IMG/VR virus record: IMGVR_UViG_2886410390_000001
Span: 11,210 to 75,209 of that record
Length of the DNA: 64,000 nt
From: a virus
Taxonomy: Duplodnaviria; Caudoviricetes
Direction: 5' to 3' (one strand)
Shown: positions 15,116 to 30,866 of the stretch, piece after piece
How positions within the stretch are numbered: position 1 is the stretch's first letter
Layout: every line of letters starts with the position of its first letter
Position numbers and translations under genes: made by a program
Notes under the pieces: model-generated
Seen by the model: the letters and a program-made list of their open reading frames with translations, nothing else
What the model was told of the DNA's origin: nothing
Database searches by the model: none

Positions 15116-18100
15116 ATGTCCGAAGGCGTTGACCTCGCCACGCTGTCCATCCGCATCGACTCGTCTGACGCGAAGGCGGGCGTGGAGTCCCTCACGAAGC
15201 TCAGCGGCGCCGCGGAGAAGACGGAGACGGCGACGAAGAAGGTGGAGACGGCCACCGAGCAATACCTGAAGGGGCTGGAGCGGATGGTGCGGGAGGTCGA
15301 GGAGACCAACCGAGCCCTGGAGCGTATGCGCACCGTCAGCAAGGACCTGGAGCTGGTGACGGCTGCGGCTGGAGGGCTTCAGGCCGCGCTCGGCGACACG
15401 GCGGGGCTCCAGCGCTTCAACACGCAGCTCGGCGCCAGCGACGTCGCCATGGAGCGCTTCCAGAAGTCCCTCATGGACACGGCTGCCGTGGGCCGCTTCA
15501 TGGGGGATTTGGAGCGGGCGTCCCTGAAGCTGAGGGACATGCACGCGGCGCAGGAGAAGGCGGCCGCCGCCGTCCGGGACGTCCAGCAAGTCACCGAGGC
15601 CGCCGAGCCGCCCGTCACGCGCCTCGCGCGCGGCCTCGGCGGGCTGGTGAGCCAATTCGTGGGCGTGGCCGCTGCCGGCGCGGCCCTTCGCAGTGCCACC
15701 ACCGAGGCCCTCGGCTTCGGGACGGCCATGGCGCAGGTGAGCACGCTGCTGGACGGGGAGCAGCTGAAGATGATGGGCACCCTGGCCGAGCGCGCGAAGG
15801 CCCTGGGCGCCGAGTTCGGCCGCATGCCCACGGACCAAGCGAAGGCCCTCTACGACATCATGAGCGCCGGCGCGTCGGACGCCGCGCAGGCCACCGAGAT
15901 GCTCCGCGTCGCCAACCAGCTCGCCATCGGTGGCGTCACCGACGTGGGCACCGCGGCGGACGGCCTGACGAGCATCATGGCCACGTACGGCAGCAGCCTC
16001 CGAAGTGCCACCGAGGCGGCGGATGCCATGTTCGTCTCGGCGGCGGACGGGAAGACGTCCATCGAGGCCATCGCCCGCCACATCGGAAAGGTGGCTCCCA
16101 TCGCGTCCCAGACGGGCGTCTCGCTGCAGGAGTTGTTGGCGGCCAACGCGGCGCTGACGAAGTCCGGCATCAAGACGGAGACGGCCATGGAGGGCGTGCG
16201 CAGCATCCTCGCACAGGTGGCCAAACCCTCGGAGGACGCGGCGAAGCTGGCACGTGCCCTCGGCGTCGACTTCACCACGGCCGGGCTGCGTGCCCGTGGC
16301 TTCGCTGGCTTCATGGAGCACGTCCGGGAGCGGACGCATGGCAACACGGAGCAGCTCGCCGTCCTCGTGGGAGGCGTCGAGGCGCTGCTCCCCGCCATGG
16401 CCCTCACCGGCACCGCTGCGGCGGACTTCGCCGCGTCGCTGGAGCACATGAAGGACTCCGCGGGCCGCACCGAAGTGGCCTTCAACAAGATGGCCGAGAC
16501 GCCGCAGTTCAAGTTGGACCAGCTCCGCGCGCGCTTTGCCTCTCTCCAGGTGGACGTGGGGGACGGCTTGCTGTCCGCCATGGGCCCCTCCATGGACGGC
16601 CTCCTGCGCCACTTCAACGAGGTGACGACGGCCGCGCGCTACCTCGGCGAGGGGCTCGCGGTGCTGGCCACCGTGCGCGCGGCGGGGTGGGCCCAGGACT
16701 GGACGAAGGCCCTGGCAGACAAGGCGGGTGCCGCGCGCCAAGCGCGCGACGCCATGACGAATGCTGCGCTCGCGGATGCGGCGTACTCCCGCCGGGTGAC
16801 GGAGAGCCGGGCGGCGGCACTGCGCAATGCGCTGGCCATGCTCCAGCAGCGCCAGGCCGCCCTCGAAACGGCAGCCGCGCTGGAGGGCCCCTTCACGGTG
16901 GCGCACACGCGCGCGGCCATCGCCTCCAACGCGCTGGCGCAGGCGAAGGTGAAGGAGGCGCTGGCCATCGAGGGGGCGTCCTTCGCGGCGCGGGCGGGCT
17001 CCGCCGCGCTCAGCGCGCTGGGAGGCCCCATCGGCATCATCACCACGGCCCTGGGGCTGGCGGCGTCGGCCTACTTCGAGTTCGGCCGGGCGGCGGAAGA
17101 GGCCAGCGAGAAGGCGAAGCAGGCCATCCGAGAGAGCGGGGCCGCTGCAGACCGGGCCAGCCAAATCATCACTGACCTCCAGGCCCGGCTGAAGGTGGAG
17201 AAGGACCTGACGAAGCAGCAGGAGGCCTACAACCTCGCCCGGCTGGAGTTCATCAACCTGGGCCCGAAGTACGAGAAGGCCCTCAGCGCTGGGACGGGCA
17301 CCATGGAGGGCCTGCGCGCCGACTTCGAGCGCATGGTGAAGGCCGACCTCGTGGACGCGCGCTTGGAGCAGGAGCGCCTCAAGAAGTACTGGGCCAACAT
17401 GGAGAAGGCGATTTCCGTTGATGCCAAGGGTGACACGCTCCACCAAACCCGGGAGGAAATTGTTGGCACCAAGAAGTACAAGATGCGCTCCGAGAAGGAC
17501 CTGAAGCCTATCGAGGAGGAACTCCGGGCTCAGCGCGAGCGGGAGGTGCAGCTTCTCAAGGCGCAGCAGCGACTCGACGACGCGGCGAAGGCGTCCAACA
17601 CGCTGACGGCGGAGGAGGAGAAGCGCGCGGCCGCCACGACGAAGGTGAATGCCGCCACGTCGCAGTCCGCCCAGTCCCTCCTGGACGACGTGAAGGCGAA
17701 GGAGGCGGCGGAGAAGAAGGCCACGGCGTGGCTGGCTCGGCTGGAGGAAGAGGCGCGCGCGCTCGGGAAGACGAAGGGCGAGGCGTTGGAGTTGAGCGAC
17801 GAGTACGCGGCCCTCACCGCCGAGCAGAAGCGGCAGGCGGACGTGGCCATCGCCAAAATCAAGGCAGCGGAGGAAGCCAAGGCCGCGGAGAAGGCGGCAG
17901 CCAAGGCCGAAGAGGAGCGCACGCGCATCCTCCAGGAGTTGAACCGCGAGCTGGGCAACCCCGGGGCGGAGAAGTACGCGCAGGCCCAGCGCATCCTCCG
18001 TGAGGAGCTGGACCAGGGGCGCGTGTCCCTCTCGGCCTACCAGGCGCAGATGGCCAAGGCGCGCAGCCTCTGGACGGAGGAGGGGAAGGCGGAGGCCCAG

Positions 18101-18835
18101 CTGGCGAAGGAACTGGAGCAGCTCGAGCGCCAGCTCAACCCGCTCCTCGAAGCCCAGAAGCGCATGGACATGGTCAACCGCCTTTTCAACGAGGGCAGGC
18201 TGGGGGCCGTGGCCTACCGGAAGGAGGTGGAGCGCCTCCAGGAGCAGCTCTCCACCGGCTTCGCGCTGGCGAAGGACTCCATGGTGGCGGCCACCCAGCA
18301 CATGGAGGACGCCTTCGTCACCTTCGCCACCACCGGCAAGCTGGAGTTCGGCACCATGGTGGACGGCATCCTGAAGGACATCGCCCGGCTCATGGCCCAG
18401 CGCGCCTTCGTCGCGCTCCTGGACTCGGCGACGTCAGCGCTGGCGGGTGCGTGGGGTAGTGGAGGCGGTGCGGTGGTGGGCGGCGCGGACCTGTCCGGCA
18501 TGTTCGGCGCCATGGTGGGCGGTGCGCGTGCAGCCGGCGGGCCGGTGCGGGCCGGCCATGCCCACGTGGTGGGCGAGCTGGGGCCGGAGCTGTTCGTCCC
18601 CAGCAGCTCCGGCACCATCGTCCCCAACAAGGCGCTGGGCGGTGGCGACGTCCACATGTCCGTGCAGGTGGTAGTCAACGCGGACGGCTCCTCGTCCGTC
18701 GACGTCCAGTCGCAGGGCGGCCGCGAGGACGCACAGCGCATGGGCCGGCACCTGGCGGACACCATCCGCAAGGTGGTGGGCGAGGAGCTGCAGCCCGGCG
18801 GCAGCATCTACAACTTTACGTGGAGGCGGCGATAG
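15116..18835 (+). CDS. Tail tape measure protein (TP901-type core)
   Basis: 1239 aa Ala-rich helical; ALYDIMSAG...SKELGKVAP-like core; C-terminal ARAAGGPV...VVGELGPELFVP. Confidence 0.95.
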   Translation: MSEGVDLATLSIRIDSSDAKAGVESLTKLSGAAEKTETATKKVETATEQYLKGLERMVREVEETNRALERMRTVSKDLELVTAAAGGLQAALGDTAGLQRFNTQLGASDVAMERFQKSLMDTAAVGRFMGDLERASLKLRDMHAAQEKAAAAVRDVQQVTEAAEPPVTRLARGLGGLVSQFVGVAAAGAALRSATTEALGFGTAMAQVSTLLDGEQLKMMGTLAERAKALGAEFGRMPTDQAKALYDIMSAGASDAAQATEMLRVANQLAIGGVTDVGTAADGLTSIMATYGSSLRSATEAADAMFVSAADGKTSIEAIARHIGKVAPIASQTGVSLQELLAANAALTKSGIKTETAMEGVRSILAQVAKPSEDAAKLARALGVDFTTAGLRARGFAGFMEHVRERTHGNTEQLAVLVGGVEALLPAMALTGTAAADFAASLEHMKDSAGRTEVAFNKMAETPQFKLDQLRARFASLQVDVGDGLLSAMGPSMDGLLRHFNEVTTAARYLGEGLAVLATVRAAGWAQDWTKALADKAGAARQARDAMTNAALADAAYSRRVTESRAAALRNALAMLQQRQAALETAAALEGPFTVAHTRAAIASNALAQAKVKEALAIEGASFAARAGSAALSALGGPIGIITTALGLAASAYFEFGRAAEEASEKAKQAIRESGAAADRASQIITDLQARLKVEKDLTKQQEAYNLARLEFINLGPKYEKALSAGTGTMEGLRADFERMVKADLVDARLEQERLKKYWANMEKAISVDAKGDTLHQTREEIVGTKKYKMRSEKDLKPIEEELRAQREREVQLLKAQQRLDDAAKASNTLTAEEEKRAAATTKVNAATSQSAQSLLDDVKAKEAAEKKATAWLARLEEEARALGKTKGEALELSDEYAALTAEQKRQADVAIAKIKAAEEAKAAEKAAAKAEEERTRILQELNRELGNPGAEKYAQAQRILREELDQGRVSLSAYQAQMAKARSLWTEEGKAEAQLAKELEQLERQLNPLLEAQKRMDMVNRLFNEGRLGAVAYRKEVERLQEQLSTGFALAKDSMVAATQHMEDAFVTFATTGKLEFGTMVDGILKDIARLMAQRAFVALLDSATSALAGAWGSGGGAVVGGADLSGMFGAMVGGARAAGGPVRAGHAHVVGELGPELFVPSSSGTIVPNKALGGGDVHMSVQVVVNADGSSSVDVQSQGGREDAQRMGRHLADTIRKVVGEELQPGGSIYNFTWRRR

Positions 18836-21881: not shown

Positions 21882-23579
21882 TCATCGCGGCTCCGCATCG
21901 GCAGTTGGAGTGAGTGGCTTCCCTGCACGGGCAAACTCACGCACGACAATGCCTGCAAGGCGAGACTTCGGCTCCTTCGCTACAATCCGCTGGCACGCCT
22001 CTCTGAATGTTCTCGAAATTGCATGAAGCGAATGCGATGGATCGTCATTCCAGAGATGCCGCGAGAGTACGTCAAAAGCGGCTTGGCGAGCCTCCGAGCT
22101 GCATGTGCGAATGAAGCCTTCAATCTCTTCGACGGACGCTCCACCGAGTCGCGTGATGTGCCCGTACTCCATGCCCTTATTCGTTTCGAGAAAGTCAAAT
22201 GATTGATCGAGAGTCGGGATGGGAAACGCCGCGTGTCTCTCGGTCTCGATGGCGGACAGGATTAGCTCGTGAAATCCATCGATGTTGTGTCGATAGTGGA
22301 AGCTGTCCAGGCGTGCGAATGCTGATATTTCTCTCGCGTGACTGGAGATCCATTTGCTTGCAATGGAGGCCCCCATCGCCTTCGATGCGTATTCGTCGGC
22401 GAGTTTGATTGCTGCATTGGCAGTCCCGCTGTGGATGATTTCTGCATTTTCAAGAATAGATGACAGTACATTGTTCACAGTCGCGTGCGGATGATTTGCT
22501 TCCCATCGAATTCTCTGGTGGGCCAGTCGAAGAAGTTCTTCCATCTCGAAGTTGCGCTGCCTGCTGTCGAGGAGTTCGCGGTAGTTTGCTAGGGCGGTTC
22601 GGTCGAGGAAGCCACGCTCAAGGTATGGTACTAGCACTTGGGTCTCAAACTCGTCAGGATGGCCGAGTTTGTACTCGTCCAGCAGTTGCTTGGCCGCCTT
22701 CTGGTCGTCGGTTAGTTTCTCGGGATTCTCAAATTTGATCAAGAATGGGTTAAGCGCTTGCTCGAGCGTGAGCGGATTCTTGTGTGTTCCTTGATGAATC
22801 GCAACAAACAGCACGATGCTTGGAATGAGATAAGGCCAATGGTGCGGCAGAATGACTCCTGCGTCATCAAGGGCCTTATATGTGCGGCGCATTCGTTGTA
22901 TTGTTCTGATGTTAGTGATCTTGAGTTTGTTGATGCATGATTTGAACGTCTCGAAGTGCTTCTCGGGCATTTTGCCTAGGCCGATTGAGATGGATTCGTC
23001 CGTCGTTATTGCCAGAGAAATCTCCATGCTTATCGTTTTCTCTCTCAGTTCGTTCCATTTGGGGTCTTTCTCCAATCTTTCTTTGTTTGCAATTAAGAGT
23101 ATTCGTGTTTCGGAGAGTGTCGCGAGGTGGGTGATGAATCCTAGTATTTCCGTTGCGTCAATCTTATCGGCGGCACGCTCGATATCGTCGAACGCGATCA
23201 CTGATTTTTTAGGGAGCACGTCCCGTAAGGCGGGAAGGAACGACTGAAGATCAGCGAGAGTTGCGGTAATCTTCAGTTCATCTGGGAGTTGGCTGTTGGC
23301 GACGGCAACCACTGCCCGGGTAGCTTTTGCTGCGATTTTTGACTTCGTTGATTGCCCAATTAGTAGTGCGCCGAATGTGGCTGACTTTAGCGCATCAATT
23401 GAGCTGTGATTCAGGCATGAGATGTAGATCGGAGAAAAGCCTAGTGGCTTCAAGTCGGGCAGGATGTCGTTCCAAAGATGCGTCTTCCCTGTTCCCCAGT
23501 CGCCGTGAAGGGCAATTACCGGGGTTTCGGGTAAGCGAAGGGCGTCAAGGAGGGCGGTTCTGGCCTGGGCGAAACTCAT
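21882..23579 (-). CDS. KAP-family P-loop NTPase (moron)
   Basis: IALHGDWGTGKT Walker A, IAFDDIER Walker B, LIAN; low GC; GAGGA RBS before ATG 23579. Confidence 0.85.
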   Translation of the reverse strand: MSFAQARTALLDALRLPETPVIALHGDWGTGKTHLWNDILPDLKPLGFSPIYISCLNHSSIDALKSATFGALLIGQSTKSKIAAKATRAVVAVANSQLPDELKITATLADLQSFLPALRDVLPKKSVIAFDDIERAADKIDATEILGFITHLATLSETRILLIANKERLEKDPKWNELREKTISMEISLAITTDESISIGLGKMPEKHFETFKSCINKLKITNIRTIQRMRRTYKALDDAGVILPHHWPYLIPSIVLFVAIHQGTHKNPLTLEQALNPFLIKFENPEKLTDDQKAAKQLLDEYKLGHPDEFETQVLVPYLERGFLDRTALANYRELLDSRQRNFEMEELLRLAHQRIRWEANHPHATVNNVLSSILENAEIIHSGTANAAIKLADEYASKAMGASIASKWISSHAREISAFARLDSFHYRHNIDGFHELILSAIETERHAAFPIPTLDQSFDFLETNKGMEYGHITRLGGASVEEIEGFIRTCSSEARQAAFDVLSRHLWNDDPSHSLHAISRTFREACQRIVAKEPKSRLAGIVVREFARAGKPLTPTADAEPR

Positions 23580-23891
23580 GTGGTCCTCTTTCTTGAGATG
23601 CTGTCGGAAGGCCATCGAAGGCTTGCAGGAGAGTGTAAATTTACTTCGGCGCCGCGCTTGTGAACTGAGCGCCATGGAGCATCATTTGGGGTCCCGATTG
23701 CGAATCCTAGAGTTTGAGTTCCGGTGCGTGACTTGTTCGGTCTAAAGCCGTTTGCGCGTGAGAACATCGAGCTTCGATAGGTCGTGTCGCTGGCTCCGTC
23801 GACCTACTCATGTAGAGGTCGGACGGCGTCCACTCTTGCAGGCATTCGTGCAGATGGCATGGAACTGCATGATACCTCTTGGGAGGTAGTG

Positions 23892-24623
23892 ATGGCCCCA
23901 GGCGACGTGGCGGCGTTCTCTCAAGATGTCATTTCCGCGTCGCTCGAGCACGCGCAGGACGAGTACCCGCGCGAGGCGTGCGGTCTCGTCGTGCTGGTGG
24001 CTGGCGCTCAGCGGTACGTGTCGTGCCGGAACCAGGCGGAGGGGCAGTCCCACTTCGTCCTGCATCCGGAGGACTACGCCCAGGCTGAGGCGGAGGGCGA
24101 GGTGCTCGCCGTCGTTCACTCGCACCCCAACGCCGCGCCGGAGCCGAGCGAGGCGGACCGCGTCATGATGGAGCGCTGGGGCCTGCCCTGGCTCATCATC
24201 AACGTCCCCGTGGGGCACTGGCGTCTCTGGTACCCCACCGGGTACCGGCCCCCGCTCATCGGACGGCCCTTCAGTCACGGCGTGCTGGACTGCTTCTCGC
24301 TGGTCCGCGACTACTACGCGGAGCGGCTGGGCCTGGAGTTGCCGGACTTCCACCGCCCTGACGCGTGGTGGGAGAAGGGCGGCAACCTCTACCTGGAGGG
24401 GTACGCCGAGGCCGGCTTCGTCGACGTCACCGGCAGCGCGCTGCGCGAGCACGACGTCCTCCTCATGCAGCTGCGCTCGCCGGTGCCCAACCACGCGGGC
24501 GTGTACCTGGGCGCGGACGTTGTCCTCCACCACCTCCAGAATCGGCTCTCCGGAAGGGAGACGTACAGCGGCTTCTGGGAGCGAATCACCCGGAAGGTTG
24601 TGCGGCACCGCAGCCTATGCTGA
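23892..24623 (+). CDS. Tail tip assembly protein K (JAB/MPN + NlpC/P60)
   Basis: YPREACG...VVHSHP...SEAD JAB motif; DCFSLVRDYY...NHAGVY...LHH NlpC/P60. Confidence 0.92.
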   Translation: MAPGDVAAFSQDVISASLEHAQDEYPREACGLVVLVAGAQRYVSCRNQAEGQSHFVLHPEDYAQAEAEGEVLAVVHSHPNAAPEPSEADRVMMERWGLPWLIINVPVGHWRLWYPTGYRPPLIGRPFSHGVLDCFSLVRDYYAERLGLELPDFHRPDAWWEKGGNLYLEGYAEAGFVDVTGSALREHDVLLMQLRSPVPNHAGVYLGADVVLHHLQNRLSGRETYSGFWERITRKVVRHRSLC

Positions 24624-25684
24624 CGACGGTGGTACTGGGCGGCCCGCTGGGCCGGCGCTTCGGGCGGGTGTGGCGGCTGGACTTGGGCGTGCCTTCCCCG
24701 GCGGAGGCGGTGCGCGCCCTGTCCGCGGTGTGCGAGGGCTTCGCCCGGTACCTGGTGGACAACAGCGAGCCGGGCTTCCACGTTTTCATCGGCAAGCAGG
24801 ACGTCGGGGCTGAGGAGCTGGCGACGCCGGCCAGCGGCTCGCGCGTCATCACCGTCATGCCGGCCTTGGCCGGGGCCAAGTCGGGCTGGTTCCAGGTGGT
24901 GCTGGGCGCGGTGCTCATTGCCGGTGGCGCGGTGCTCTCCGTCTACGGCTTCGGTGCCGGCACGCCGCTCATCACCATGGGCGCCTCCCTCGTGGTGGGT
25001 GGCGTCTCGCAGCTGCTCTTCGCTCCGCCCACGCCCCTGGCACCCGTGGAGCGGCCGGAGAATCAGCCCTCGTACACCTTCAACGGGCCCGTCAACACGC
25101 TGGGCCAGGGCCACCCGGTGCCCCTCTGCTACGGGGAGCTGGAGGTGGGCAGCTGCGTCATCTCCGCCGGCATCGTCACCGAGTGGAATGCCGGGGGCGG
25201 CTTCGGCGGCGCTGGCGGCAGCGGACAGAGCGGACCGAGGGGCGAGCCGGCGGGTGGTGGCGGCTGCCCCGCGCCGTGGGTGCCCGTCCTCCTGGCAGAC
25301 GGCCGCGAGGTGCCCGCGGGCGAGCTGCAGGTGGGCGACTGGGTGCGCACCCAGCACGATGCGACGCTGGCGTGGGGCGACTTCCCCGTCACCGGCGTGG
25401 CCCACCTCGAGGCCGACTGCTGGCGCGTCGAGCTGGACGACGGGAGGGCCTTCGTGGGCACGTACAACCACCGCGTGCGCACGGAAGAGGCCTGGGTGGA
25501 GGTGCGGCACCTGGTGCCCGGCGCGCGCCTCGTCGGTGCATGCGCGGGCGTGGTGCGGCAGGTGGCGCCGTGCGGCCGCGGGCCTGTGGTGCGCGTCACA
25601 GTGGAGGACGCGCACACGTACCAGACGGCCGGCTTCCTCTCGCACAACGTGAAGCAGGCGGACCCGGAGGCGCCGGATGTCTGA
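24617..25684 (+). CDS. Tail tip assembly protein I (lambda gpI-like) fused to C-terminal Hint domain
   Basis: LGGPLGRRFG...AEAVRAL; SYTFNGPVNT..QGHPVP.CYGE..VGS.VISA; then Gly linker and Hint. Confidence 0.88.
   Translation: MLTTVVLGGPLGRRFGRVWRLDLGVPSPAEAVRALSAVCEGFARYLVDNSEPGFHVFIGKQDVGAEELATPASGSRVITVMPALAGAKSGWFQVVLGAVLIAGGAVLSVYGFGAGTPLITMGASLVVGGVSQLLFAPPTPLAPVERPENQPSYTFNGPVNTLGQGHPVPLCYGELEVGSCVISAGIVTEWNAGGGFGGAGGSGQSGPRGEPAGGGGCPAPWVPVLLADGREVPAGELQVGDWVRTQHDATLAWGDFPVTGVAHLEADCWRVELDDGRAFVGTYNHRVRTEEAWVEVRHLVPGARLVGACAGVVRQVAPCGRGPVVRVTVEDAHTYQTAGFLSHNVKQADPEAPDV
25265..25648 (+). other. Hint (intein-like) domain 1, 128 aa
   Basis: Starts C-PAPW...LADG...L.VGD; block B TYNH; ends HTY...LSHN; next residue Val. 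Confidence 0.85.
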
Positions 25685-28184
25685 GAAGGGCCCCCTCATC
25701 GGCTACGGCGGCAACAGCGGCGGCAAGGGCGGCAGCGAGGCCCAGCGCTCGCCGGTGGAGCGCCCAGACACGCTGAAGTCGTCCGCGCACGCGCGTGTCC
25801 TCGACTTGCTGTGCGAGGGCGAAATCGAAGGACTCGTGGACGGGCTGAAGTCCGTCTACCTCGACGGCGTGCCGGTGCAGAACCCGGACGGCAGCTTCAA
25901 CTTCCGCGACGTCACCCTCTACGACGTGAAGGGCACGCAGTCGCAGGAGTACATCCCCGGGTTTCCTTCGGCGGAGGCTGAGTACGTCGTCAACACCGAG
26001 GTGAAGAAGGACACGCCGGTGGTGCGCACCGTCACCGACGCCAGTGTGGACGCGGTGCGCGTCACCGTGCAGGTGCCGCAGCTGTCCCAGCAGCAGCCCG
26101 TCACGGGGGACCTCGGCCCTGACCTCGTCGCCATCGCCATTGACGTGCAGAGCAACGGCGGCGGCTACGTTGCCCAGGACTTGAAGGGGGCGGGCACCAT
26201 TTCTGGCAAGTGCACCAGCCCCTACGAGAGGACGTACCGCGTGGAGCTCACCGGCAGCCCGCCGTGGGACATCCGCGTGCGGCGCCTCACCGCGGACAGC
26301 AGCTCCGCCACGCGGCAGAACAAGACGTACTGGAAGTCCTACGCCACGCTGGTGGACGAGAAGCTCAGCTTCCCCAACAGCGCGCTGTGTGCGCTGCAGG
26401 TGTCCGCGCACCAATTCCAGTCCATTCCCACGCGCAGCTACCGCATTCGCGGGCTGAAGGTGCGGGTGCCCTCCAACTACAACCCCACCACGCGGGCGTA
26501 CACCGGCACGTGGGACGGCACCTTTCAGGTGGCGTGGACGGACAACCCGGCCTGGTGCTTCTACGACTTGCTGACGACGAAGCGCTACGGCCTGGGCCGC
26601 TTCCTCAACCCGGCCCACGTGGACAAGTGGGGGCTGTACACCATTGCCCGCTACTGCGACGAGTTGGTGCCGGACGGGAAGGGCGGCATGGAGCCGCGCT
26701 TCCGCTGCAACCTCTACCTCCAGACGCAGGCGGACGCGTACCAGGTCGTCAACAACCTCGCCTCCGTCTTCCGCGGCATGACGTACTGGGCGAGCGGCGC
26801 GGTGTACGTCGCCCAGGACGCGCCCCGGGACGCCGAGTACCTCTTCACCCCGGCCAACGTGGTGGACGGCCTCTTCACCTACTCCAGTAGCGGCCGGCGC
26901 GCGCGCCACACCGTGGCGCTGGTGACGTGGAACGACCCGGCCAACCACTACCAGTCCGCGAAGGAGTACGTGGCCGACGAGGAGGGCCTCGCCACCTACG
27001 GCTACAACCCCACCGAGGTGGTGGCCCTGGGCTGTACCTCGCGCAGCCAGGCGCAGCGGGTGGGCCGGTGGTTGCTGTACACCGAGAGGCTGGAGACGGA
27101 GACGGTGGTATTCCGCACTGGCCTCGAGGGGGCGCTGCGCAACCCCGGCGCCGTGGTGAAGGTGCTGGACTCGCACCGGGCCGGCCGCCGCTGGGGCGGG
27201 CGCGTGGTGGCCGCCACCGCCTCCCTCGTCGAGCTCGACTCGGACGTCACCGTGGAGGTGGGCAAGGCGTACACCCTCTTCGTGGTGCTGCCGGACGGGA
27301 AGGTGGAGGAGCGGCCCCTGGCGACGCTGCCCCCGGCGCCGTACCGGGCCCTTACCGTCGCCACGCCCTTCTCCGCGGCGCCGACGCCTCAGGCCGTCTG
27401 GGTGCTCGCCGCGTCCGACTTGGCGCCCACCACGTGGCGCATTCTCAGCGTCAGCGAGGTGGAGCCGCACCTGTATGAAGTCACCGCGCTGCGCCACCAC
27501 CCCGGCAAGTACGCGGAAGTGGAGTACGGGGTGAAGGTGCAGCCGGTGCCCACCTCGGTGCTTCCATCCTCCGCGCCGCCCGCGGGGCTGGTGCTGGGGG
27601 AGAGCCTCTACAAGACGACCAACGGAGGGCTGAAGGTGTCCCTCAACGCGCGGTGGACGCAGCACCCGGGCGCCACTGAGTACGTGGTGCGCTGGCGGCA
27701 GGCCGGGGGCAACTGGGCCACGGAGAGGGGCGTGCAGGTGCACTTCTGGGAGCTGCGGGACATTGCCCCCGGCCCGTACAGCGTGCAGGTGGCCGCCGTC
27801 CTCAACGGCCTCGTCACCGCCTTCTCCGAGGCCTCGTACACGGTGCTGGGCAAGGCCGCGCCTCCGTCGGACGTCACCGGTTTCGCCTACAGCCTCAACG
27901 GCAACACGGCCACGCTGCGCTGGGCGGAAATCGCCGACTTGGACAGGGACATGTACGAGCTGCGCTACGGCGGACTCGCCTGGGAGAGCGCCACCTTCAT
28001 CGCCAAGGTGCGCGCCACCGCGCACGAGTGGCCGCTGCCGTCGCCCGCCAACTACACGGTGTGGCTGAAGGCCGTGGACACCTCGGGCAACCCCAGCGCC
28101 AACGCGGCGTCCGTCACCGTGCTGGCCGCGCCCACCACGCCGGCCTCCGTCACCATGACGGTGTCCTCCACCCCGCCAGCCTGA
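25677..28184 (+). CDS. Central tail fibre / host specificity protein J (short, 835 aa)
   Basis: DLLCEGEIEGL; WTDNPAWCFYDLL...RYGLG; EPRFRCN; GCTSRSQAQR.GRW; C-terminal FN3 domains. Confidence 0.93.
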   Translation: MSEKGPLIGYGGNSGGKGGSEAQRSPVERPDTLKSSAHARVLDLLCEGEIEGLVDGLKSVYLDGVPVQNPDGSFNFRDVTLYDVKGTQSQEYIPGFPSAEAEYVVNTEVKKDTPVVRTVTDASVDAVRVTVQVPQLSQQQPVTGDLGPDLVAIAIDVQSNGGGYVAQDLKGAGTISGKCTSPYERTYRVELTGSPPWDIRVRRLTADSSSATRQNKTYWKSYATLVDEKLSFPNSALCALQVSAHQFQSIPTRSYRIRGLKVRVPSNYNPTTRAYTGTWDGTFQVAWTDNPAWCFYDLLTTKRYGLGRFLNPAHVDKWGLYTIARYCDELVPDGKGGMEPRFRCNLYLQTQADAYQVVNNLASVFRGMTYWASGAVYVAQDAPRDAEYLFTPANVVDGLFTYSSSGRRARHTVALVTWNDPANHYQSAKEYVADEEGLATYGYNPTEVVALGCTSRSQAQRVGRWLLYTERLETETVVFRTGLEGALRNPGAVVKVLDSHRAGRRWGGRVVAATASLVELDSDVTVEVGKAYTLFVVLPDGKVEERPLATLPPAPYRALTVATPFSAAPTPQAVWVLAASDLAPTTWRILSVSEVEPHLYEVTALRHHPGKYAEVEYGVKVQPVPTSVLPSSAPPAGLVLGESLYKTTNGGLKVSLNARWTQHPGATEYVVRWRQAGGNWATERGVQVHFWELRDIAPGPYSVQVAAVLNGLVTAFSEASYTVLGKAAPPSDVTGFAYSLNGNTATLRWAEIADLDRDMYELRYGGLAWESATFIAKVRATAHEWPLPSPANYTVWLKAVDTSGNPSANAASVTVLAAPTTPASVTMTVSSTPPA

Positions 28185-28197
28185 GGAAGAAGACGTC

Positions 28198-30312
28198 ATG
28201 CGAGCTCGCGAGAGAGAAGGCGTCGGCGGCGTCATCGAGGACGGCACCCCCACCAACCGGACGCCCCGCATCCTCAAGCCGAAGTACCTCGACATCCGCT
28301 GGGCGCACACCGAGGTGCTGCCGGCCCACCTGCTGGTGGGCTTCCAGGTGGCCGTCTTCACCGGCAATGACCCGAACAACACCGACGCCTACCTCGTGGA
28401 GCCGGTGCGGGTGGGGCCTTCCGAGAGGCGCGCGGTGGTGTCGCTGCGGGTGGCCACCACGCAGAATGTCCGCTGTGCCGTCCAGGCCCTCTACTCCAAC
28501 GGCAACCAGAGTAGCTGGCGCGTCCTTGGCGGGGCGGTGGCGACGGACCCGGACACCGTCACCATGGCGGTGCAAGACTTGTCCAACGTCACGGCCGGCG
28601 CGGTGAAGCCGGCGCACCTGGCCGCCGCGGCCGTCACCAGTGACAAGGTGGCTGCCAGCGCCATCGCCACCCAGCACCTGCTGCTGCCGCCGTCGGACAA
28701 CCTCGTGCCCAATGGCTACAGCGAGGCGGGGACGGCGGCGCTGGGTAAGTCGCCAGAGGGTAGCTACCTCGTCAATGACCCGGCCAACGCGCGCGAGGGC
28801 AATTGGTGTCGAAAGCTCCCCCTCGTCGCGGGGGCATACTCGGCCATCGCCTTCGCTGGAGAAATTCCGTGCGCCAGCGGGGACCAGTTCTACGCCGAGG
28901 CGTGGGTGAAGCTTTCCGCGGCGCCCTCCGCGCCGCCTCCGTGGAACCTGTACCTGCGCTTCTTGGACAGGACGGGCGCCCTTGTCGGGTTGCCGCTGAC
29001 GACGCTGAGTACCGTCACCGCCACCTACCAACGCTTTAAGGTGACGGGCACTGCTCCGGCGGGTGCGGTGTCCGTCTCGCTCATCCTCGACACCTCAGGC
29101 ACCCCGAATTCGGTGCCGGCGGCGGACGGAGGGAAGTCCCTCTTCATCGACGCCGTCTCCATGCGGAAAATGGTGACGTTCGACTTGCTGTCGGCCAACA
29201 CCCTCAAGACGAGCAACTACGCGGAGGACGGCAACGGCATCCCGACGGCGGGTGCGAAGCTGGACAACGTGGGCACGGCGCTGAAGGTGGCGTCGGGCAA
29301 CCTCCAGGTGGGCCGCTACCCGCTGGAGGCCATGTTCTACAAGAGCCTCGTCACGCTCGATGGCCCGGGCCCCGGCAACCGCTGCTTCTACCGGGGCAAC
29401 AACAACGGGGCGGTGCGGGGTGGGGCGCCCAATATCGACAGGGTGCGCGTGGAGTGCGCGGACAACATCTCCGGCGCGTCGCTGTCCTGGGCGAAGTGGC
29501 AGCTCTTCCTGGAGCCGCAGTCGCTGGACGACAACTTCGACGGCATGCGCCACGCGCGCGTGGAGTTGTGGGTGCGGCAGACGGCCAACCTGGGCTTTCG
29601 CCACCAGGTGCTCTACGCCCCGCTGGCGGACAGGGTGTACCGGGACGCCGTCGACGCCACGGCCAACAACGCCGGGGCCACTTCCTTCGAGTACATGTAC
29701 GCCGGCAACATCTCCGGGCTGGCCGCCTCCAACGTGTACAACTGGTACCTGCTGGTGTCCGTCGTCAACGTGTATGGGGCGAGCGCCAGCAAGTGGTTCC
29801 TCCCGAGTGCCAGCCGCAACACGGCCTTCGCCTCGCAGTACGCGGCGCCTTTCTCCGGGGCAACGGCCGGTGGAGGTGGAGGTGGAGGAAGCGACGGGGA
29901 CGGGTACTGCCCGGCGCCGTGGGAGCCGATTCTCCTCGCGGAAGGCGGCGAGGTGCCGGCGGACCTGGTGCGCCCCGGCATGCGCGTCCTCACGTGGCAC
30001 GAGGCCTCCCTGAAGCCGGACGTGTACGAGGTGGCCGGTGTCTCCAGTGCGCGGGCGCAGCGCTACCGGCTCGTGCTGGAGGACGGACGCACGGTGGTGG
30101 CCTCGCGGCCGCACCCGCTGTACGCGGAAGGCCGTGGCTGGACGGCACTCGCTGACTTGCGGCCCGGCGACGTCCTCCTGGGCACGCGCCCGGGCCGCGT
30201 CCGGCGGGTGGAGCCGGAAGGGGAGGGCGACGTCGTGAAGCTCTCCGTCCACGGGGCCCGCACCTACCAGGTGAAGGGCCTCCTTTCCCACAACGCCAAG
30301 CAGCGCGAGTAG
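28198..30312 (+). CDS. Receptor-binding tail-tip protein (FN3-like + CBM-like + unique domain) with C-terminal Hint domain
   Basis: Follows gpJ with GAGGA RBS; DNLVPNG carbohydrate-binding-module-like start; poly-Gly linker then Hint. Confidence 0.75.
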   Translation: MRAREREGVGGVIEDGTPTNRTPRILKPKYLDIRWAHTEVLPAHLLVGFQVAVFTGNDPNNTDAYLVEPVRVGPSERRAVVSLRVATTQNVRCAVQALYSNGNQSSWRVLGGAVATDPDTVTMAVQDLSNVTAGAVKPAHLAAAAVTSDKVAASAIATQHLLLPPSDNLVPNGYSEAGTAALGKSPEGSYLVNDPANAREGNWCRKLPLVAGAYSAIAFAGEIPCASGDQFYAEAWVKLSAAPSAPPPWNLYLRFLDRTGALVGLPLTTLSTVTATYQRFKVTGTAPAGAVSVSLILDTSGTPNSVPAADGGKSLFIDAVSMRKMVTFDLLSANTLKTSNYAEDGNGIPTAGAKLDNVGTALKVASGNLQVGRYPLEAMFYKSLVTLDGPGPGNRCFYRGNNNGAVRGGAPNIDRVRVECADNISGASLSWAKWQLFLEPQSLDDNFDGMRHARVELWVRQTANLGFRHQVLYAPLADRVYRDAVDATANNAGATSFEYMYAGNISGLAASNVYNWYLLVSVVNVYGASASKWFLPSASRNTAFASQYAAPFSGATAGGGGGGGSDGDGYCPAPWEPILLAEGGEVPADLVRPGMRVLTWHEASLKPDVYEVAGVSSARAQRYRLVLEDGRTVVASRPHPLYAEGRGWTALADLRPGDVLLGTRPGRVRRVEPEGEGDVVKLSVHGARTYQVKGLLSHNAKQRE
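29908..30294 (+). other. Hint (intein-like) domain 2, 129 aa
   Basis: C-PAPW...LAEG...PG; block B SRPH; ends RTY...LSHN; next residue Ala. Confidence 0.85.
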
Positions 30313-30332
30313 CCCGCGCCAGGAGTCGCCGC

Positions 30333-30866
30333 ATGCCTCTCACCGCTGAAGAGGTGTACCAGCGCAACGCCATGGAGGCCCGGAGGCGCGAGCTGATGAC
30401 GCAGTTGGCCCGAGTTCGCGGTTACCTCGACGCCTCGGCCGCGTCGTCGAAGTACTTCGCGCGCATCAACCAGGACACCCAGGTGCAGCGCGACGAGCTG
30501 GAGCGGCAGTTGCGCGAGCTGGACGCCGGCGGCACCGCGGGCCTCACCGACGACTGGGGGAAGTACTCCGCCCTCGAGCTGGCCGCCCAGGAGGATCGCT
30601 ACGCCGCGAAGGCGGGGTGCTACGACTGGCTGGTGGCGCACCCCATGGCCACGCTGGCGGAGGCCGCCGCGGAGCTGGAGCGCCTCATGCTGGAGGCCCG
30701 CAGTGCGGCGGGCCGGCCCTGGCTGCTCTTGCGTGGCGAGGGCCTCGTGCGTGAGTGGCAGGCCAACGCCTTCGCGCGCGGGCTCATCCCAGAGGACGAC
30801 TGGGCCGTCTTCCGGGACTGGCTCCTCGTCATCGGCAAGGACGCGGCGCTCGGCCGCGCGCTGTGA
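30333..30866 (+). CDS. Hypothetical helical protein (possible tail fibre chaperone/partner)
   Basis: Immediately after RBP; GGAG RBS; phage-like codon usage. Confidence 0.65.
   Translation: MPLTAEEVYQRNAMEARRRELMTQLARVRGYLDASAASSKYFARINQDTQVQRDELERQLRELDAGGTAGLTDDWGKYSALELAAQEDRYAAKAGCYDWLVAHPMATLAEAAAELERLMLEARSAAGRPWLLLRGEGLVREWQANAFARGLIPEDDWAVFRDWLLVIGKDAALGRAL

What the first reader, a model, noticed from the sequence alone, without database searches (positions are those of the whole stretch)
24617..30866. Twin C-terminal Hint (intein-like) domains on two different tail-tip proteins: candidate autoprocessing/ligation system
Seen: gpI (24617-25684) and the protein after gpJ (28198-30312) each end in a Gly-rich linker (..EPAGGGG|C; ..GGGGGGSDGDGY|C). 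Each linker is followed by a 128/129-aa domain starting CPAPW and ending TY...LSHN. Domain 1 has block B TYNH and domain 2 has SRPH. Both have a basic residue (R/K) where block F usually has Asp. The +1 residues after Asn are Val and Ala, and the tails are short (VKQADPEAPDV, AKQRE). The two copies are clearly homologous but diverged, so this is a maintained feature rather than a fresh duplication. Established: Cys1 plus the block B His drive the N-S acyl shift. Without Cys/Ser/Thr at +1, canonical splicing cannot occur. Hedgehog and bacterial intein-like Hint domains instead cleave, or transfer the N-terminal part onto another nucleophile. Lambda gpI has no such domain, has a beta-grasp (ubiquitin-like) N-terminus, and sits next to JAB/NlpC gpK. 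Inference: both tail-tip proteins are made as precursors whose C-terminal Gly is activated as a thioester. This could be used to (a) release a folding/trimerisation chaperone, as an alternative to S74 chaperones, (b) covalently join gpI or the RBP to each other, gpJ, or a lipid/small molecule, or (c) mask tail-tip sites from host ubiquitin-like anti-phage conjugation. The 177-aa gene just downstream (30333-30866) may be a partner.
Basis: partly seen in the sequence, partly recalled or inferred. Interest (0 to 1): 0.88.

Follow-up and report, generated by a model that had tools for sequence, protein, structure and literature searches.

The report
Self-cleaving Hint caps on tail proteins
Two tail-tip proteins of a Myxococcus-type prophage each end in an intein-like "Hint" domain that probably cuts itself off, and this domain belongs to a large, apparently undescribed family that caps phage tail fibres and tip proteins.

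Summary
The gpI homologue (24617-25684) and the 704-aa fibre after gpJ (28198-30312) each end in a Gly-rich linker, a 128/129-aa domain and a short tail. The two domains are 44% identical (E 7e-34). Both are true Hint folds: pLDDT >90, Z 19.8 to the Npu DnaB intein, 19.6 to Tetrahymena BIL2, and profile E 8e-10 to inteins.

They belong to a large family (4,080 cluster representatives at E<=1e-3). Cys1, the block-B His and the terminal His-Asn are essentially invariant, and a Lys sits at +1/+2 in 157 of 164 domain ends. The tail is usually 4-6 residues. Carriers are gpJ-like proteins, fibres and a minority of gpI proteins.

The closest named kind is the A-type BIL / Pfam PT-HINT branch, but the window copies score below Pfam's threshold. 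No paper describing Hint on tail proteins was found.

The "twin system" reading is not supported. Each Hint occurs without the other in relatives, and the 177-aa gene is not coupled to either. By contrast, the fibre's tip domain was always followed by the Hint (15 of 15 matches).

Best reading: a cis-acting, self-removing maturation cap. Whether the conserved Lys accepts the activated C-terminus, as in BIL2, is open.

The scan has noted other C-terminal Hint cassettes on other DNA, but not this family.

The parts
23784..24623 (+). gpK homologue (context): Prok-JAB + NlpC/P60 tail-tip protein, directly upstream of gpI
   Evidence: Pfam PF14464 5e-18 and PF00877 6e-13; phrog_30 3e-116
24617..25186 (+). 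gpI (tail assembly protein I) body, residues 1-190 of P0001. This is a complete gpI.
   Evidence: phrog_32 E 7.4e-54 over residues 2-189, profile positions 4-198 of 203. PF06805 scores 21.2 bits, below its cut-off. Ordinary homologues end here.
25187..25264 (+). Gly-rich linker 1 (residues 191-216, ends GGGG)
   Evidence: Translation. pLDDT <50 over 179-214.
25265..25648 (+). Hint domain 1 (Cys217-Asn344): CPAPW start, block B TYNH, end LSHN
   Evidence: pLDDT >90. Foldseek: BIL2 6y75 E 7.8e-13, mini-inteins, Cth BIL, hedgehog. Invariant C217/H285/H343/N344 in alignment A2.
25649..25684 (+). C-extein 1 (VKQADPEAPDV) plus stop. Lys at +2. Overlaps the gpJ start.
   Evidence: x-K-x-x-D-P-E is conserved in the gpI-Hint orthologues.
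25677..28184 (+). gpJ homologue (835 aa, short form), lying between the two Hint-bearing genes
   Evidence: phrog_31 E 3e-291; PF24801 and PF13550
28198..28545 (+). Fibre P0002 N-terminal beta-sandwich (about residues 10-116), probably the anchor to gpJ
   Evidence: AF2 model. The first 166-175 residues are conserved in relatives whose fibres are otherwise different and lack a Hint.
28675..29175 (+). CBM-like beta-sandwich of P0002 (about residues 160-326)
   Evidence: VIA Z 13-14 to CBM4/16/22/61 and to phage tailspike/fibre domains. Foldseek CBM16 E 1e-7.
29380..29856 (+). Fibre tip domain (about residues 395-553), always found fused to the Hint
   Evidence: pLDDT about 90. All 15 matches in 201 genomes are directly followed by a Hint match. 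The same domain precedes the Hint in many viral-contig fibres.
29857..29907 (+). Gly-rich linker 2 (residues 554-570)
   Evidence: Translation. pLDDT <50 over 560-568.
29908..30294 (+). Hint domain 2 (Cys571-Asn699): CPAPW start, block B SRPH, end LSHN
   Evidence: VIA Z 19.8, rmsd 1.8 A, 131 residues aligned to the Npu DnaB intein; Z 19.6 to BIL2; Z 18.9 to Cth BIL; Z 18.2 to hedgehog. Invariant C571/H639/H698/N699.
30295..30312 (+). C-extein 2 (AKQRE) plus stop. Lys at +2.
   Evidence: K701 is conserved in at least 90% of alignments A3 and A5.
30333..30866 (+). 177-aa helical protein of unknown family. A neighbour that is not shown to belong to the feature.
   Evidence: No Pfam, PHROG or NCBIfam family. 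No Atlas lead. Present downstream of only 3 of 8 related fibre-Hint genes.

Best explanation
Each domain is a cis-acting, self-removing Hint module of the A-type-BIL / PT-HINT kind, fused through a flexible Gly linker to the C-terminus of a tail-tip protein.

Inferred sequence of events:
1. Cys1 attacks the Gly-Cys peptide bond, helped by the block-B His, and converts it into a thioester.
2. The terminal Asn, helped by the penultimate His, cyclises and cuts the bond before the short C-extein.
3. The thioester is resolved by water, or by the nearby amine of the C-extein.
4. The 14-kDa Hint leaves. Mature gpI or fibre ends at the Gly linker, with or without the 5-11-residue peptide.

The Hint would serve as a temporary cap. 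For the fibre it would be a built-in maturation or folding aid for the tip domain. For gpI it would keep the C-terminus, which has to fit inside the tail tip, blocked until assembly.

Shown here: the fold, the conserved catalytic residues, the architecture and the distribution. Inferred: that cleavage happens, when it happens, and what it is for.
For: Fold:
- Both models have pLDDT >90 over the domain.
- VIA Z is 19.8 to the Npu DnaB intein, 19.6 to BIL2, 18.9 to Cth BIL and 18.2 to hedgehog.
- Foldseek gives E 7.8e-13 and 2.3e-10.
- A 17-sequence profile hits inteins at E 8e-10, with the terminal HN aligned.

Catalytic residues:
- Cys1, the block-B His and His-Asn are invariant across 19 short and 45-52 long carriers.
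- Cys1 is present in 142 of 143 full matches. S-H-N is present in 142 of 164 domain ends.
- A +1 nucleophile (C/S/T) occurs in only 10 of 164. BIL domains without one give mainly N- and C-cleaved products (PMC7664689).

Architecture:
- 73% of carriers have at least 3 Gly in the 10 residues before Cys1.
- The domain is terminal, with tails mostly 4-6 aa.

Action in cis:
- The fibre tip domain was followed by the Hint in all 15 matches in 201 genomes.
- The same cassette closes many otherwise unrelated long fibres on viral contigs.

Carriers are tail proteins:
- 17 of 45 long carriers have Phage-tail_3 and 5 have Rcc01698_C.
- 7 of 19 short carriers are gpI.

The Hint is an add-on: gpI is complete without it, since more than 100 homologues of 195-235 aa lack it.
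Against: - No experiment or virion proteomics shows cleavage.
- The block-F Asp of class-1 inteins is Arg or Lys here, and residue 2 is Pro. The effect of either on activity is unknown.
- Plain removal by N-terminal cleavage would not need the terminal Asn. It also would not need the near-universal Lys at +1/+2 (157 of 164) or a tail that is never shorter than 2 residues. These features suggest the C-terminal junction does something more.
- Most gpI proteins work without a Hint, so any benefit to gpI is not general.
- The tip-plus-Hint linkage was measured among related genomes with a single query.
Confidence: 0.6

Rival explanations
1. Lys-directed ligation. The Hint's product is a new amide bond, not a cut. 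The activated C-terminal Gly of gpI or the fibre is passed to the epsilon-amine of the conserved Lys at +1/+2. This would be a splice through an isopeptide onto the protein's own tail peptide, or a transfer to a Lys of a neighbouring tail-tip subunit. The chemistry would match that reported for Tetrahymena BIL2.
For: - Lys sits at +1 or +2 in 157 of 164 domain ends, and no ORF stops at the Asn.
- His-Asn is invariant although the C-extein is only 2-11 residues.
- Rhs-type PT-HINT domains in the same bacterial order lack the Lys.
- BIL2 is the best or near-best structural match. It is reported to form a Lys(epsilon-NH2)-C-terminus isopeptide without ATP (PMC8616854).
- Tail motifs are conserved within lineages: A/L-K-P/Q-R-D/E on fibres and x-K-x-x-D-P-E on gpI.
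Against: - Nothing shows that the Lys is a nucleophile. It could instead position the scissile bond or assist Asn cyclisation.
- Sequence identity to BIL2 is only 14-21%.
- The -1 residue is not a fixed Gly-Gly (G 48, T 26, S 21, A 15, Y 13 of 143).
- BIL domains mostly cleave (PMC7664689).
Confidence: 0.2
2. Selfish or variability element. Like other BIL domains in hypervariable proteins, the Hint is kept mainly because its conserved DNA acts as a 3' recombination handle for swapping fibre modules. It must excise itself only so as to do no harm, and it plays no positive part in assembly.
For: - BIL domains are described as lying in hypervariable regions of non-conserved proteins and as contributing to variability (PMC7765530).
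- P0002 has a conserved N-terminal anchor, a variable middle and a conserved 3' Hint.
- The Hint sits on many different carriers, and carrier labels are scattered on the domain tree: gpI needs 6 changes for 7 rows (quick tree, weakly resolved).
- Tandem arrays exist.
Against: - The tip domain was followed by the Hint in 15 of 15 matches, which points to a functional dependence.
- gpI-Hint and fibre-Hint orthologues have been stably inherited as separate lineages.
Confidence: 0.1
3. Retained structural or receptor-binding domain. The Hint stays on the mature tail tip and its conserved residues serve binding rather than catalysis.
For: The domain is distal on a receptor-binding fibre that also carries a CBM-like domain. 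No direct evidence of cleavage exists.
Against: - The invariant positions are exactly the four catalytic residues of inteins, while surface positions vary.
- The same domain sits on gpI, which is not a receptor-binding protein.
- The linker is disordered.
Confidence: 0.07
4. Two-partner system. The two Hints, perhaps with the 177-aa protein, work together to join gpI, the fibre and gpJ.
For: Both Hints lie in one tail-tip module. The same pair recurs in prophages of G200 and G129 and on three viral contigs.
Against: - gpI-Hint occurs with a Hint-less fibre in G138 and G168. Fibre-Hint occurs in loci where tblastn with the window's gpK/gpI/gpJ found nothing in at least five genomes.
- The 177-aa gene is missing from 5 of 8 related fibre-Hint loci, even at E 10.
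- The twin cases all belong to one Myxococcus/Corallococcus prophage lineage.
Confidence: 0.03

Closest known systems
A-type bacterial intein-like (BIL) domains / Pfam PT-HINT (PF07591)
   Same: - Hint fold (Z 18.9 to the C. thermocellum BIL 2lwy).
- N-terminal Cys, block-B His and C-terminal His-Asn, with no +1 Cys/Ser/Thr.
- Carried by variable, non-conserved proteins.
- Tandem and internal relatives of this family score above the PT-HINT threshold.
   Different: - The window copies score below the threshold (18.6 bits against 27.7 for domain 2; no hit for domain 1).
- The signature differs: C-P-A-P at the start, S-H-N-x-K at the end.
- The domain sits at the very C-terminus with a 2-11-aa tail, rather than in front of a toxin domain of about 100-140 aa.
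- The carriers are phage tail proteins.
BIL2 of the Tetrahymena thermophila BUBL1 locus (PDB 6Y75/6TMM)
   Same: - Best Foldseek match for domain 1 (E 7.8e-13) and Z 19.6 for domain 2.
- No +1 nucleophile.
- A Lys amine is reported as the acceptor (PMC8616854).
- It is linked to a ubiquitin-like domain, and gpI has a ubiquitin-like N-terminus.
   Different: - Identity is only 14-21%.
- In BUBL the ubiquitin-like domain's C-terminal Gly abuts the BIL. In P0001 about 130 residues of gpI body lie between.
- BIL2 is internal, between two domains. Here the C-extein is a peptide.
Peptidase S74 intramolecular chaperone of tail spikes and fibres (K1F endosialidase, T5 pb1)
   Same: C-terminal position on phage fibres. 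It is expected to be released by self-cleavage after it has helped the preceding domain mature (background in PMC12403621).
   Different: The fold and chemistry are unrelated: S74 is a trimeric chaperone with a Ser-Lys dyad, whereas this is a Cys/His/Asn Hint. No S74 family was detected in P0002. The Hint also occurs on gpI.
Hedgehog C-terminal autoprocessing (Hog) domain
   Same: Hint fold (Z 18.2). C-terminal position. A thioester at the junction releases the N-terminal part.
   Different: Hog has a sterol/adduct-recognition region after the Hint and no catalytic terminal His-Asn. Here there is no such region and His-Asn is invariant.
Class-1 mini-inteins (Npu DnaB, gp41-1, Mtu RecA)
   Same: Fold (Z 19.8, rmsd 1.8 A), blocks A, B, F and G, Cys1 and the terminal His-Asn.
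   Different: - No +1 nucleophile.
- The block-F Asp is replaced by Arg or Lys.
- The domain is not inserted in a conserved site of an essential protein.
- The C-extein is a 5-11-residue peptide.

Membership tests
Hint (Hedgehog/intein) superfamily | Hint fold | tested here: met
   VIA Z 19.8 / rmsd 1.8 A / 131 aligned to 4o1r. Z 18-19.6 to BIL2, Cth BIL and hedgehog. Foldseek probability 1.00, TM 0.77-0.87 normalised to the target.
Hint (Hedgehog/intein) superfamily | Significant sequence-profile similarity with aligned catalytic blocks | tested here: met
   Profile of alignment A4 against PDB: E 8.1e-10 (Npu DnaB intein), 1.3e-8 (RecA intein), 6e-7 (Cth BIL), 2e-4 (hedgehog), with the terminal HN aligned.
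Hint (Hedgehog/intein) superfamily | N-terminal Cys/Ser nucleophile and block-B His | tested here: met
   C217/H285 and C571/H639 are invariant in alignments A2, A3 and A5. Cys1 is present in 142 of 143 full matches.
Canonical (class 1) intein | Cys/Ser/Thr at +1 for transesterification | tested here: not met
   +1 is Val (P0001) and Ala (P0002). C/S/T is at +1 in only 10 of 164 family ends.
Canonical (class 1) intein | Insertion within a host protein with two functional exteins | tested here: not met
   The C-exteins are 11 and 5 residues. The family's commonest tail length is 4-6.
Canonical (class 1) intein | Block-F Asp | tested here: not met
   Arg (domain 1) or Lys (domain 2) aligns with the Asp of the RecA and DnaB inteins. 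The position is variable in the family.
A-type BIL / PT-HINT (PF07591) | Cys1 plus C-terminal His-Asn without a +1 nucleophile, in variable proteins | tested here: met
   Definition taken from PMC7765530 and PMC9185962.
A-type BIL / PT-HINT (PF07591) | Score above Pfam's gathering threshold (27.7 bits) | tested here: not met
   Domain 2 scores 18.6 bits and domain 1 has no hit. None of the 17 members of A4 reaches the threshold. Tandem or internal relatives do (28.5-43.7 bits).
A-type BIL / PT-HINT (PF07591) | Autocatalytic N- and C-terminal cleavage | not testable with these tools
   Needs expression of the wild type and of C1A / Asn-to-Ala mutants.
B-type BIL / Hint_2 (PF13403) | Intein motifs but no C-terminal His-Asn motif | tested here: not met
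   His-Asn is invariant here. Hint_2 matches only 2 of 17 members, below threshold.
C-type BIL (Bdellovibrio; Dori-Bachash 2009) | Association with the PPS-1 domain; C-type sequence motifs | not testable with these tools
   The paper and reference sequences are not held. The family was not found in the 151 Bdellovibrionia genomes searched, but an empty search proves nothing.
Hedgehog Hog domain | Sterol/adduct-recognition region after the Hint | tested here: not met
   Only 11 and 5 residues follow the Hint.
Peptidase S74 intramolecular chaperone | S74 domain with a Ser-Lys dyad at the fibre C-terminus | tested here: not met
   No S74 family in the Pfam scan of P0002. The C-terminal domain is a Hint fold.
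Lambda gpI (tail assembly protein I) | Homology over the full gpI length, in gpK-gpI-gpJ order | tested here: met
   phrog_32 E 7.4e-54, residues 2-189, profile positions 4-198 of 203. Flanked by gpK and gpJ. Pfam PF06805 alone is below its threshold (21.2 against 23.8 bits).

The most novel reading that the evidence does not exclude
The near-universal Lys just after the terminal Asn is the acyl acceptor. These Hint domains would then carry out an ATP-independent, isopeptide-forming splice. That splice would staple the C-terminal Gly of tail-tip proteins either to the protein's own tail peptide or to a Lys of a neighbouring subunit. Tail-tip maturation would then involve covalent, BIL2-like conjugation chemistry. 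For gpI, a ubiquitin-like protein lying next to a JAB peptidase, this would be a phage counterpart of the ciliate BIL-ubiquitin-like system.
Probability: 0.2. Interest if true: 0.85.

Novelty: new variant of a known kind. Interest (0 to 1): 0.6.

Why it matters
Self-cleaving C-terminal chaperones of phage fibres are so far known only as the S74 type. A second, chemically different module on tail fibres, gpJ-like proteins and gpI would be a new maturation step for phage tails. Such a module works through Hint thioester chemistry and is found here in thousands of protein clusters.

It would also change how these receptor-binding proteins should be expressed and engineered, because the precursor is not the mature form. 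The compact 128-aa domain could be of use for protein engineering: it has no +1 nucleophile requirement and has a fixed Lys at +1/+2.

The family is almost absent from cultured-phage records and is not captured by Pfam at threshold. It is therefore invisible in routine phage annotation.

Tried and rejected
- Megablast of the region against 50,697 phage records found nothing.
- tblastn of each domain against phages found only true terminase inteins and one unannotated faecal-metagenome record, MT835519.
- The search for related loci failed with alignment A4 because no stretch was conserved enough. With domain 1 alone it found nothing.
- The pattern scan of genome contigs was almost all chance. 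It says nothing about taxonomic breadth.
- The listing of cluster members returned mostly unnamed metagenomic proteins.
- The region search with the tip domain in the search for homologous proteins was too insensitive, giving 5 hits. I replaced it with the whole-genome scan.
- The C-type BIL paper is not held. The family was not found in 151 Bdellovibrionia genomes.
- Ten literature searches found no paper describing Hint or BIL domains at the C-terminus of phage tail proteins. The library covers open-access papers only.
- The 177-aa protein has no Pfam, PHROG or NCBIfam family and no Atlas lead.
No complex was predicted.
- The tip domain's own fold was not identified, because the VIA and Foldseek hit lists were filled by the Hint and CBM-like domains.
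- The careful tree search did not finish. Only the quick tree is reported.
Full report
**What is there.** The window lies in a 13.4-Mb, 68% G+C genome. Its closest protein relatives come from Myxococcus and Corallococcus.

Positions 3-31 kb hold a complete lambda-like siphovirus prophage:
- small and large terminase
- major head protein
- tape measure protein (15116-18835)
- gpM and gpL
- an antisense 597-aa gene inserted after gpL
- gpK (JAB + NlpC/P60, 23784-24623)
- a gpI homologue (24617-25684)
- a short gpJ (25677-28184)
- a 704-aa protein (28198-30312)
- a 177-aa protein (30333-30866)

P0001 is a complete gpI (phrog_32 E 7e-54 over residues 2-189), followed by a 26-residue Gly-rich linker, a 128-residue domain (C217-N344) and an 11-residue tail. 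P0002 ends in a 17-residue Gly-rich linker, a 129-residue domain (C571-N699) and a 5-residue tail.

The two domains are 44% identical over their full length (E 7e-34).

**It is a Hint domain.** Single-sequence searches gave only weak, though consistent, intein hits. A 17-sequence profile hits mini-inteins at E 8e-10, the C. thermocellum BIL at 6e-7 and hedgehog at 2e-4, with the terminal His-Asn aligned.

AlphaFold2 models of both full proteins give pLDDT >90 across the domain. Structure matches:

| Search | Match | Score |
|---|---|---|
| Foldseek, domain 1 | BIL2 | E 7.8e-13 |
| Foldseek, domain 2 | Npu DnaB intein | E 2.3e-10 |
| VIA-align, domain 2 | Npu DnaB intein | Z 19.8, rmsd 1.8 A, 131 residues |
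| VIA-align, domain 2 | BIL2 | Z 19.6 |
| VIA-align, domain 2 | Cth BIL | Z 18.9 |
| VIA-align, domain 2 | hedgehog | Z 18.2 |

**It is one member of a large, sharply defined family.** A profile of the two domains found 4,080 cluster representatives at E<=1e-3 and 584 at E<=1e-10 among 1.84 billion.

In the best 150:
- The domain starts with Cys in 142 of 143 full matches.
- At least 3 Gly occur in the ten preceding residues in 73% of cases.
- The domain ends S-H-N in 142 of 164 ends.
- C/S/T is at +1 in only 10 of 164.
- Lys is at +1 or +2 in 157 of 164.
- About half of the ends have 10 or fewer residues after the Asn. Among the short tails, 4-6 residues dominate and none is shorter than 2.

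Cys1, the block-B His and His-Asn are invariant in alignments of 19 short and 45-52 long carriers.

Rhs-type PT-HINT domains in the same bacterial order look different. They start CF[VI]AGT, end WVHN with no Lys after it, and are followed by domains of about 100-140 aa.

No Pfam Hint model reaches its threshold on the window copies or on 17 close relatives. Tandem and internal relatives do reach PT-HINT. NCBI names some close homologues only "Hint domain-containing protein".

**Who carries it.**
- Of 45 long carriers, 17 have the gpJ-type Phage-tail_3 domain and 5 have the GTA-type Rcc01698_C domain. Others have FN3, CBM or collagen-type modules.
- Of 19 short carriers, 7 are gpI fusions and most others match tail or fibre PHROGs.
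- A motif scan of viral contigs gave 37 stretches. Nearly all were confirmed by HMM, on gpI or on long fibres.
- The family is all but absent from 50,697 deposited phage records.
- gpI-Hint fusions are a small minority: about 15 clusters against more than 100 ordinary gpI of 195-235 aa.

P0002 itself is a receptor-binding-type fibre. It has an N-terminal beta-sandwich, a CBM4/16/22-like domain (Z 13-14; similar domains occur in phage tailspikes and fibres), a tip domain and then the Hint.

**Are the two Hints a pair?** No.

The full module (gpK, gpI-Hint, gpJ, fibre-Hint, 177-aa gene) recurs in prophages of G200 and G129. gpI-Hint and a P0002-like fibre-Hint also lie together on three viral contigs. 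All of these belong to one Myxococcus/Corallococcus lineage.

In G138 and G168, gpI-Hint is followed by gpJ and by a fibre that shares only its first ~170 residues with P0002 and has no Hint. In G102, G108, G134, G020 and G051, fibre-Hint lies in loci where tblastn with the window's gpK, gpI and gpJ found nothing.

Orthologues are 73-75% identical while the paralogues are 44-50% identical, so the two copies are old, separate lineages.

The 177-aa gene follows only 3 of 8 related fibre-Hint genes. It has no recognisable family.

**What is coupled.** The fibre's tip domain (residues 395-560) gave 15 matches in 201 genomes of the order. Every one is followed, after a ~25-35-nt gap (the linker), by a Hint match. 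The same tip-plus-Hint cassette closes many otherwise unrelated fibres of 685-2,149 aa on viral contigs. These genomes are related and only one query was used, so this is a strong hint rather than proof of dependence.

**Mechanism.** Established chemistry of the superfamily says three things. Cys1 and the block-B His make a thioester at the upstream junction. His-Asn cuts the downstream junction by succinimide formation. Without a +1 nucleophile, BIL domains give mostly N- and C-cleaved products (PMC7664689; PMC7765530).

The best reading is therefore a cis-acting, self-removing cap on tail-tip proteins (confidence 0.6). It would be analogous in position and purpose to the S74 intramolecular chaperones, but built on different chemistry.

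Simple removal leaves three things unexplained: the invariant Asn, the 96% Lys at +1/+2, and the fact that no ORF stops at the Asn. BIL2, the closest or near-closest structure, is reported to make a Lys isopeptide with the activated C-terminus (PMC8616854). The rival reading, that the Lys is the acyl acceptor, therefore gets 0.2.

The other rivals rank lower. They are a purely selfish or recombination-handle role, a retained structural domain, and a two-partner system.

**Novelty.** The fold and chemistry are known, and the domain is generically annotated in some records. The family signature, its strict C-terminal placement with a Lys-bearing mini-extein, and its use on phage tail proteins were not found in any paper searched. 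The library is open-access only, so a description in a subscription journal cannot be excluded, including a link to C-type BILs.

Earlier agents of this scan reported other C-terminal Hint cassettes on surface proteins of gut Clostridia. Those are a different family, consisting of a Hint plus an ~85-aa tail.

**Caveats.**
- The tally of 45 of 201 genomes includes one unpublished genome (G162, a weak match). No claim here rests on it.

Noticed in passing
window 21882-23675 (- strand): A 597-aa antisense gene (phrog_4740, function unknown; another first-stage note calls it a KAP NTPase) sits between gpL and gpK. Relatives also have gaps of differing size between gpL and gpK (about 0.8 kb in L022, about 2.4 kb in L029). 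This looks like a hot spot for cargo insertion in the tail operon.
   Followed up: partly
window 28198-28700; L022:9617-10114; L023:9406-9948: Only the first 166-175 residues of P0002 are shared (56-59% identity) with the fibres of G138 and G168, which are otherwise different and have no Hint. This suggests a conserved gpJ-docking N-terminus with an exchangeable distal part. gpJ itself is a short 835-aa form.
   Followed up: partly
window 28675-29175: P0002 residues ~160-326 form a CBM4/16/22/61-like beta-sandwich (Z 13-14). Similar domains occur in the CBA120 TSP4, Klebsiella Kp7 fibre and phi812 baseplate structures. The receptor is therefore likely a polysaccharide.
   Followed up: partly
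proteins P0003, P0006, P0009, P0010, P0012, P0022, P0030, P0125: Metagenomic proteins carry 2-5 tandem copies of the same Hint family, each ending S-H-N-K and often separated by Pro-rich spacers. P0125 combines several copies with a Tim44-like domain. Their function is unknown.
   Followed up: no
L035, L041, L045, L046, L049, L053, L055, L056, L059 (viral contigs): A subgroup of long fibres (up to 2,149 aa) has Cys instead of Ser before the terminal His-Asn (L-L-C-H-N-x-K). This places a second Cys next to the C-terminal junction.
   Followed up: no
L015-L021 (genomes of the same order): Giant ORFs of 2,000-2,900 aa carry a classical PT-HINT (CF[VI]AGT ... WVHN) followed by ~100-140-aa C-terminal domains. 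These are probably Rhs-type polymorphic toxins of myxobacteria.
   Followed up: no
G200 contigs C21 and C24: One genome holds two near-identical copies of the whole gpI-Hint / fibre-Hint tail module at almost the same contig offsets. This could be two related prophages or an assembly duplication.
   Followed up: no
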